A program made the translations under genes and the position numbers. The notes under the pieces are model-generated. The model was not told the DNA's origin, ran no database searches, and worked only from the letters and a program-made list of their open reading frames with translations. DNA of 64,000 nucleotides from Eledone cirrhosa. Its lineage: Eukaryota. Shown piece after piece: positions 3,442 to 3,842 of the stretch. The stretch is taken from contig CAXHJY010001404.1 of NCBI GenBank assembly GCA_964016885.1, forward strand, positions 199,464 to 263,463. The letters are read 5' to 3'. Every line of letters starts with the position of its first letter. Within the stretch, counting starts at the first letter, position 1.

Positions 3442-3504
<63 letters not shown>

Positions 3505-3573
3505 AAAAAGAGATGAAATCGAAAATGCAACTGGAGTCTTATTTTTTTTTAAAATATATATATTTATTTGGTT

Positions 3574-3611
3574 CCTTTACCGGTTTCGCAGTTCTTCTGC
3601 TTTTCAAAAGG
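3574..3611 (-). ncRNA. Minimal hammerhead ribozyme, U3-A8 variant (left arm)
   Basis: CCTT-TTGAAAA-GCAG aagaa CTGC-GAAA-CCGG-TA-AAGG, then AATAAA. Confidence 0.68.
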
Positions 3612-3681
3612 TGAGTTGAGATGGAGGGTCTGTGGTTTTTCTCACATGTGAGAAAAACCACAGACCCTCCATCTCAACTCA

Positions 3682-3716
3682 CCTTTTGAAAAGCAGAACT
3701 GCGAAACCGGTAAAGG
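3682..3716 (+). ncRNA. Minimal hammerhead ribozyme, U3-A8 variant (right arm)
   Basis: CCTT-TTGAAAA-GCAG aa CTGC-GAAA-CCGG-TA-AAGG, then AATAAA. Confidence 0.62.
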
Positions 3717-3842
3717 AACCAAATAAATATATATATTTTTTAAAAAAATAAGACTCCAGTTGCATTTTCGATTTCATCTCTTTTTCTTTATACTTTCACT
3801 CGTGTAGGACACCTCGGTTATTTTTCATTTTGTAAAAAAAAA

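What the first reader, a model, noticed from the sequence alone, without database searches (positions are those of the whole stretch)
3498..3792. Zero-spacer palindrome encoding a U3-A8 variant hammerhead ribozyme on each strand
Seen: each arm reads CCTT-TTGAAAA-[GCAG..CTGC]-GAAA-CCGG-TA-AAGG and then AATAAA (3682-3716 on +, 3574-3611 on -). The core is TTGAAAA rather than CTGANGA, so the conserved C3-G8 pair is replaced by a compensatory U3-A8 pair. Stem III is the palindrome CCGG. Known: PLE ends carry minimal type I hammerheads with palindromic stem III that can cleave as dimers, and U3-A8 is a tolerated natural variant. Inference: this is a head-to-head fold-back duplication of a PLE or retrozyme end. 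Read-through transcripts in either direction could form one ~145-bp hairpin that competes with the ribozyme fold. A standard CTGANGA search would miss it.
Basis: partly seen in the sequence, partly recalled or inferred. Interest (0 to 1): 0.75.

Follow-up and report, generated by a model that had tools for sequence, protein, structure and literature searches.

The report
Head-to-head Penelope ends with variant hammerheads
This palindrome is one ordinary copy of a very abundant young Penelope-type jumping gene: two copies of the element's end sit head to head, each with a known variant of a predicted self-cutting RNA motif, and the family's copies suggest that both ends of one DNA cut are likely copied from the same, mostly uncut, RNA.

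Summary
The palindrome and both hammerhead-like motifs are real, but this is not a one-off. It is a short inverted insertion of the terminal repeat (pLTR) of a young Penelope-like retroelement (RT plus GIY-YIG, Neptune/Nematis-type linker). The genome holds 6,009 exact copies of the 38-nt motif, and 99 of 100 listed copies have U3-A8. U3-A8 in PLE hammerheads, inverted pLTRs and the one-sided tail are all published. Added here: (i) the U3-A8/CCGG motif is shared by two sister families (about 50-55% protein identity) and a fourth sequence type, with covarying stems; (ii) 32 of 32 resolved inverted pairs have one tailed and one tail-less arm (one short/short exception among long elements); (iii) in 4 of 32 neither arm can be a copy of the other, which argues against simple fold-back; (iv) 44 of 99 arms begin about 30 nt after a TATA box and only 5 of 99 near the predicted cut. 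Cleavage is untested, and U3 can pair with A17. The scan noted similar two-ended insertions for retrozymes in this genome and a U3-A8 fold-back in another genome. Verdict: new member of a known kind.

The parts
3498..3646 (-). Left arm: inverted pLTR copy from about +4 of the putative start site to the proximal ('short') end, which abuts (TA)n
   Evidence: no substitutions between the two arms over 103 compared sites
3647..3848 (+). Right arm: pLTR copy from about +4 through the short end into the tail; the last ~7 nt of the family's long end are missing
3793..3848 (+).
3574..3611 (-). Family-consensus minimal type I hammerhead motif: stem I 4 bp, U3-A8 core 3607-3601, stem II 4 bp with 5-nt loop, palindromic stem III, GUA triplet; predicted cut between 3578 and 3577
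   Evidence: activity untested
3682..3716 (+). Same motif with a 3-nt deletion in loop II (stem II 3 bp with 4-nt loop); core 3686-3692; predicted cut between 3712 and 3713
3643..3650 (.). Zero-spacer junction of the two 5' ends, at the family's pile-up of 5' ends (putative transcription start), joined through a short self-complementary overlap
3433..3501 (.). (TA)n target microsatellite at the left end
3847..3906 (+). Unrelated ~60-nt piece, probably the 3' end of a LINE, replacing the tip of the tail (2-nt overlap) and followed by (TA)n
   Evidence: (loose ends at 3847/3848); the LINE label is my reading, not a database hit

Best explanation
This is a short, promoter-less, head-to-head insertion of the terminal repeat of a young endonuclease-bearing Penelope-like retroelement, likely made when both ends of one cut in a (TA)n repeat primed reverse transcription on the same element's RNA, one at a distal and one at a proximal internal start site. 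Both cDNAs would run to the RNA's 5' end (a likely transcription start about 30 nt after a TATA box) and be joined there. The U3-A8 motif is the family's normal hammerhead. It is predicted to cut only as a dimer through its ACCGGU palindrome, probably slowly or with protein help, and the templates of both arms here were uncut when copied. Shown: family membership, copy numbers, end asymmetry, 5'-end pile-up, motif conservation. Inferred: dual priming, the start site, ribozyme activity.
For: The pLTR is linked to a 775-aa RT/GIY-YIG frame that is open in many copies 98-99% identical and repeats in ~4.7-kb tandems. Counts: 6,009 exact motif copies and 16,942 exact copies of a downstream 22-mer. 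Of the first 100 listed 22-mer sites, 99 were analysed. 32 of 32 resolved inverted pairs have one long and one short arm; independent choice of ends would give at most half. In 4 of 32 (L137, L146, L162, L176) the tail-less arm reaches more than 70 nt further 5' than the tailed arm, so neither can be a copy of the other; three ORF-bearing loci (L104, L108, L117) show the same. Arms share subfamily markers: 29/29, 29/30, 26/29, 19/20 and 18/20 pairs, against 0.51-0.63 expected at random. 44 of 99 arms start at -2..+6. Both 3' ends fall at TA-rich words that match the target. In vitro, a PLE protein nicks and extends both strands, starts at two internal sites that delimit the tail, is predicted to be a dimer and uses mainly uncut RNA (PMC11167929). 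The motif is conserved with covarying stems across four sequence types (81.6% of cells paired against 59.6% shuffled and at most 51.7% slid).
Against: No RNA data: the start site and expression are untested, and only DNA or unlabelled runs held the stretch at a useful share. Six inverted rows whose partner end could not be classed were dropped, and 7 arms extending more than 500 nt were not examined for a partner. One long element (L080, part of a tandem) is short/short. Gene conversion between arms could also explain shared markers. The sample is 26 Mb of one contig. U3 is predicted to pair with A17 (P about 0.56-0.64, 1.7 kcal/mol better than the active register), stem I is only 2-4 bp across families, and one sister family has C at core position 13, so activity may be low or lost. 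No read or contig spans this whole locus. The covariation test uses 11 related sequences and a machine alignment in which family B is shifted in register.
Confidence: 0.72

Rival explanations
1. Fold-back self-priming: a single cDNA (or an antisense template) folds back at its end and copies itself, giving the palindrome. 2013.
For: Zero or near-zero spacers and short overlaps at many junctions; arms share markers; it would also give one long and one short arm; proposed in PMC3846280 (discussion read).
Against: At least 4 of 32 pairs, and three ORF-bearing loci, carry sequence unique to each arm (5' extension on one, tail on the other), which a self-copy cannot give. It could still account for a subset, including this copy, whose arms start at the same place.
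Confidence: 0.15
2. The motif is a decayed, non-cleaving relic kept for another role (protein binding, RNA dimerisation through ACCGGU, or 5'-leader structure).
For: The U3-A17 pair competes with the active fold; family C has C13; most templates were copied uncut; minimal PLE hammerheads show low activity in vitro (PMC4209133).
Against: All core positions are intact in families A, B and D. U3-A8 is active in other hammerheads (PMC3088659). 5' truncations are more frequent around the predicted cut (241 matches at +71..75 against 133 at +64..68, about 60% of the latter being indel variants by eye), with a modest peak at +73 (9 of 24 truncations in 30 stored loci). A-rich microhomology and RT stalling confound this.
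Confidence: 0.4
3. A MITE or fold-back DNA transposon with long terminal inverted repeats in a TA site.
For: A palindrome flanked by TA with thousands of copies.
Against: The arms are 5'-truncated to variable lengths, asymmetric at their outer ends, often solo, and continuous with an RT/GIY-YIG frame.
Confidence: 0.01
4. Assembly or library fold-back artefact at this locus.
For: The window lies on a small contig (C1431), and no read spans the locus.
Against: The arms differ by an indel and by the tail, exactly as the family rule predicts. Inverted joints of the family appear in raw Illumina reads of two other samples and in contigs (tables 3 and 5).
Confidence: 0.03

Closest known systems
EN+ Penelope-like elements of the Neptune (or Nematis) type with inverted 5'-truncated pLTR and one-sided tail (Craig et al. 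2021, PMC8557442, passages; Arkhipova et al. 2013, PMC3846280, passages and discussion)
   Same: C-terminal GIY-YIG after RT, DKG motif, CX4CxxC linker and CCHH-type motif, partial tandems, inverted copy at the 5' end, tail on one end, (TA)n targets, TATA box inside the pLTR.
   Different: The tail is about 60 nt rather than 30-40; many insertions consist of the pLTR pair alone; asymmetry is near-strict here (published as 'optional' or 'often'); clade not tested by a tree.
Minimal PLE hammerheads, including the U3-A8 variant of Schistosoma mansoni Cercyon elements (Cervera and De la Pena 2014, PMC4209133, parts 1-2 of 4 read)
   Same: Type I, short stem I, palindromic helix III, G10.1-C11.1, U3-A8 core (about 1,300 hits there), paired motifs 100-700 bp apart on opposite strands.
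   Different: Shorter stem II (4 bp), no bulge after A9 in this family, GUA triplet whose A17 can pair with U3; high sequence uniformity (young family); shared by several sister families in one genome.
Anolis Poseidon element PAc in vitro (Frangieh et al. 2024, PMC11167929, parts 1-2 of 4 read)
   Same: Two internal RT start sites delimiting the tail, both strands nicked and extended, uncut RNA as the main template.
   Different: Different clade; there the hammerhead has C3-G8 and overlaps the ORF start, here it lies about 170 nt upstream of ORF1; inverted products were not shown in the parts read.
Animal non-LTR retrozymes (bioRxiv 10.64898/2026.07.22.740005, abstract start and passages)
   Same: Small hammerhead-bearing insertions related to PLE pLTRs.
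   Different: No tandem monomer array here; the arm is directly the pLTR of an autonomous element.

Membership tests
EN+ Penelope-like element | RT followed by C-terminal GIY-YIG endonuclease linked to the repeat | tested here: met
   (GIY-YIG E 1.4e-6; RVT_1 weak at 0.002 on the partial protein; homologues carry both). This window copy has no ORF.
EN+ Penelope-like element | pLTRs from partial tandems, direct or inverted | tested here: met
EN+ Penelope-like element | [quoted passage not shown] | tested here: met
   32 of 32 resolved pairs; exception L080
Neptune clade | CX2-5CxxC linker, DKG and CCHH motifs, (TA)n targets | tested here: met
   read from the translation against descriptions; the linker is shared with Nematis
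Neptune clade | RT phylogeny with reference elements | not tested
   no named reference set among the hits
Type I minimal hammerhead ribozyme | Core N3 U4 G5 A6 N7 N8 A9 / G12 A13 A14 A15.1 / U16.1 H17 with a 3-8 Watson-Crick pair | tested here: met
   U3-A8 in 99 of the first 100 listed of 10,792 matches
Type I minimal hammerhead ribozyme | Stems I and II supported by covariation | tested here: inconclusive
   above both controls, but 11 related sequences, a register shift in family B, and stem I only 72.7% paired
Type I minimal hammerhead ribozyme | Palindromic stem III allowing a dimer | tested here: met
   ACCGGU, predicted duplex -8.3 kcal/mol; invariant in all 11 aligned rows
Type I minimal hammerhead ribozyme | Site-specific self-cleavage | not testable with these tools
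   indirect only: excess truncation near the predicted site, confounded
Rfam hammerhead families | Score at or above the gathering threshold | tested here: not met
   0 matches in the window (the canonical-core neighbour at 3265-3319 is missed too)
Non-LTR retrozyme | Tandem monomers, non-coding, no autonomous parent continuous with the unit | tested here: not met
MITE / fold-back DNA transposon | Fixed symmetric termini | tested here: not met

The most novel reading that the evidence does not exclude
Penelope-like elements integrate by obligate two-ended priming: a dimeric enzyme uses both ends of one cut, always pairing one distal with one proximal start site on the same capped, uncut RNA. 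This single rule produces the head-to-head repeats and the one-sided tail. In this lineage a fixed U3-A8 core, damped by a U3-A17 pair, keeps the ribozyme nearly off so that the template survives.
Probability: 0.4. Interest if true: 0.6.

Novelty: new member of a known kind. Interest (0 to 1): 0.3.

Why it matters
The locus itself is ordinary. The family is useful because how PLEs make inverted repeats and tails is an open question (stated in PMC8557442), and the printed genomic reading is self-priming (PMC3846280). A young family with thousands of copies gives counts that favour two-ended priming and can be extended genome-wide and tested in the existing in vitro system. It also shows that CTGANGA-only searches would miss more than 10,000 hammerhead motifs in this genome. 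Two searches found no paper that states two-ended priming for PLEs; most subscription papers are not covered.

Tried and rejected
Rfam scan of the window: nothing. Folding z-scores: uninformative. The apparent rule that one arm has a short loop II and the other a long one was a query bias; the short form is about 1% of copies. A DNA search for the fourth motif type (L018) returned nothing, not even itself, so it is uninformative. Searching with a 66% homologue returned only the same family. Contigs of runs from other organisms (three of four had any cover) showed the same motif, near-identical at low depth, with no compensatory changes; not used as evidence. No usable RNA run was found. A sharp one-base pile-up of 5' ends at the cut site was not established: by eye the 100 listed matches spread 20/17/25/19/18 over +71..+75, with one unclassed, and many are ambiguous against (TA)n. 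AATAAA as a polyadenylation signal: no poly(A) in copies. MITE, retrozyme and artefact readings were rejected as above. A sequence look-up in earlier scan notes gave nothing. Lunse et al. 2017, Przybilski and Hammann 2007 and Arkhipova 2006 are recalled only and were not read. Supplements and figures of PMC4209133, PMC8557442 and PMC11167929 were not seen and may already show this motif type or the end asymmetry.

Full report
Observation. The region 3498-3792 is a 96.6% inverted repeat with a perfect 52-bp-per-arm core centred at 3646/3647. The arms differ: the + arm has lost GAA in loop II, a form with 72 exact copies in the genome against 6,009 for the intact form. Rfam found nothing in the window, and the motif folds no better than shuffles, so the case rests on comparison.

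Identity. The window lies in a 3.0-Gb genome. The arm is a high-copy repeat: 10,792 matches to a 35-nt pattern with free positions 3, 7 and 8, of which 99 of the first 100 listed are U3-A8, and 16,942 matches to a downstream 22-mer. Copies are continuous with an RT/GIY-YIG frame. Of 93 scored matches at 98-100% identity, many have an open 775-aa frame. Full elements form ~4.7-kb tandems: pLTR, a ~400-aa ORF1, an overlapping ORF2 in the -1 frame, and a ~1-kb 3' region ending in the pLTR. ORF2 has the DKG motif, a CX4CxxC linker and a CCHH-type pattern, which by the descriptions in PMC8557442 (passages) points to Neptune or Nematis; no tree was built. The pLTR has two 3' ends about 60 nt apart, both at TA-rich words, and inserts in (TA)n. 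In the window the left arm stops at the short end; the right arm carries the tail to 3848, where a ~60-nt unrelated piece takes over.

Insertion anatomy. I fetched the first 100 listed 22-mer sites in 74 stretches and analysed 99 anchors after removing 4 duplicate rows. 5' ends: 44 at -2..+6 of a point about 30 nt after a TATA box, 14 at +7..70, 5 at +71..77, 9 at +78..100 and 27 further upstream. All 32 resolved inverted pairs have one long and one short arm. Six inverted rows with an unclassed partner were dropped, and 7 arms longer than 500 nt were not checked for a partner. Among ORF-bearing loci, by exact markers, 11 of the 20 had both ends marked and all were one of each, L061, L067, L075 and L079 agree (L067 and L075 repeat loci), and L080 is short/short. 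Of 22 solo arms, 18 are long. In 4 of 32 pairs the tail-less arm reaches more than 70 nt further 5' than the tailed arm, so each arm holds sequence that the other lacks. Arms of a pair share subfamily markers far above random pairing and differ at 0.022 substitutions per site against 0.039 between pairs (31 pairs). Raw reads of two other samples and contigs show inverted joints of the family, though none spans this locus.

The ribozyme motif. In 30 GIY-YIG loci two sister families at about 50-55% protein identity carry the same U3-A8 core, CCGG and GUA downstream of the endonuclease, with different stems. A fourth type occurs in a flank, and one family has C at position 13. On an 11-row alignment, 81.6% of cells pair, against 59.6% shuffled and 34-52% slid; relatedness and a register shift weaken this. 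In a descriptor scan of 1.09 Mb of fetched DNA, C3-G8 gave 31 distinct hits and U3-A8 26 (mostly this family, by selection), while mismatched C3-A8 and U3-G8 gave 1 each and A3-G8 gave 5. Against activity: U3-A17 pairing is predicted at 0.56-0.64, and both arms here span the cut site. Truncations at +71..75 outnumber those at +64..68 about four-fold after removing indel variants by eye. In 30 stored loci 9 of 24 truncations fall at +73, but microhomology and RT stalling could explain this.

Mechanism. Most likely the endonuclease cuts both strands in (TA)n. Each end primes on the element's RNA, one at the distal and one at the proximal site; both cDNAs reach the RNA's 5' end and are joined by short overlaps. 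This fits the in vitro behaviour of the Anolis element (PMC11167929, parts 1-2 read). Self-priming (PMC3846280, discussion) cannot make pairs in which each arm has unique sequence, though it could make some, this copy included. The start site, the use of a single RNA and cleavage are inferred. A read-through hairpin would overwhelm the ribozyme fold (about -233 kcal/mol), but this copy has no TATA box and no transcript is known.

Comparison and novelty. U3-A8 is reported in natural hammerheads (PMC3088659, passages) and in PLE hammerheads of S. mansoni, together with paired motifs on opposite strands (PMC4209133). Inverted 5'-truncated copies, palindromic junctions and a one-sided tail are described as typical. 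Five paper searches were run; none of the listings or passages read states two-ended priming for PLEs, but coverage is partial and supplements were not seen. Earlier scan notes infer two-ended priming for retrozymes in this genome and describe a U3-A8 fold-back elsewhere. These are leads, not support; the 32-pair count preceded them, and the each-arm-unique argument and marker test followed them.

Verdict. The feature is real, of an ordinary kind, and a new member of a known family. Interest 0.3, carried by the family-level evidence on the integration mechanism rather than by the locus.

Noticed in passing
window 3256-3432 (-), motif 3265-3319: End of a different repeat family, probably another PLE, with a canonical C3-G8 hammerhead and a TATATA palindromic stem III, sharing the same (TA)n. 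It is 99-100% identical to copies in other loci, some of them inverted pairs.
   Followed up: partly
window 499-1062 and 1966-2529; 2400-3055: A 564-nt inverted repeat (99%) made of pieces of another abundant repeat that reads like a LINE RT; part of it recurs at 4245-4590.
   Followed up: partly
window 3847-3906: A 60-nt piece that looks like a LINE 3' end replaces the last ~7 nt of the PLE tail.
   Followed up: partly
L102 about 3880-5080: ORF1 (~400 aa) overlaps ORF2 in the -1 frame, with a U UUU UUA heptamer in the ORF1 frame (slippery-site label recalled); candidate programmed frameshift.
   Followed up: no
L146:9056-9106, L150:4469-4518, L233, L235: A sister family has C instead of A at core position 13 in its U3-A8 motif in all copies seen, and shares the TATA region with this family.
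   Followed up: partly
L081-L100: A second subfamily has a weaker stem I (3 bp plus a mismatch) and accounts for most of the extra matches.
   Followed up: partly
L018:1224-1281; L010:124-173: Further motifs with CCGG: one U3-A8 with a 5-bp stem II and GUC triplet, and one with U3-C8; families not traced.
   Followed up: partly
L079/L080: Two long elements in tandem with the same inverted 5' junction; one is short/short, the only exception seen to the tail rule.
   Followed up: no
window 1234-1255: A 22-nt match to the pLTR just downstream of the predicted cut, followed by (TA)n; possibly a tiny truncated arm.
   Followed up: no
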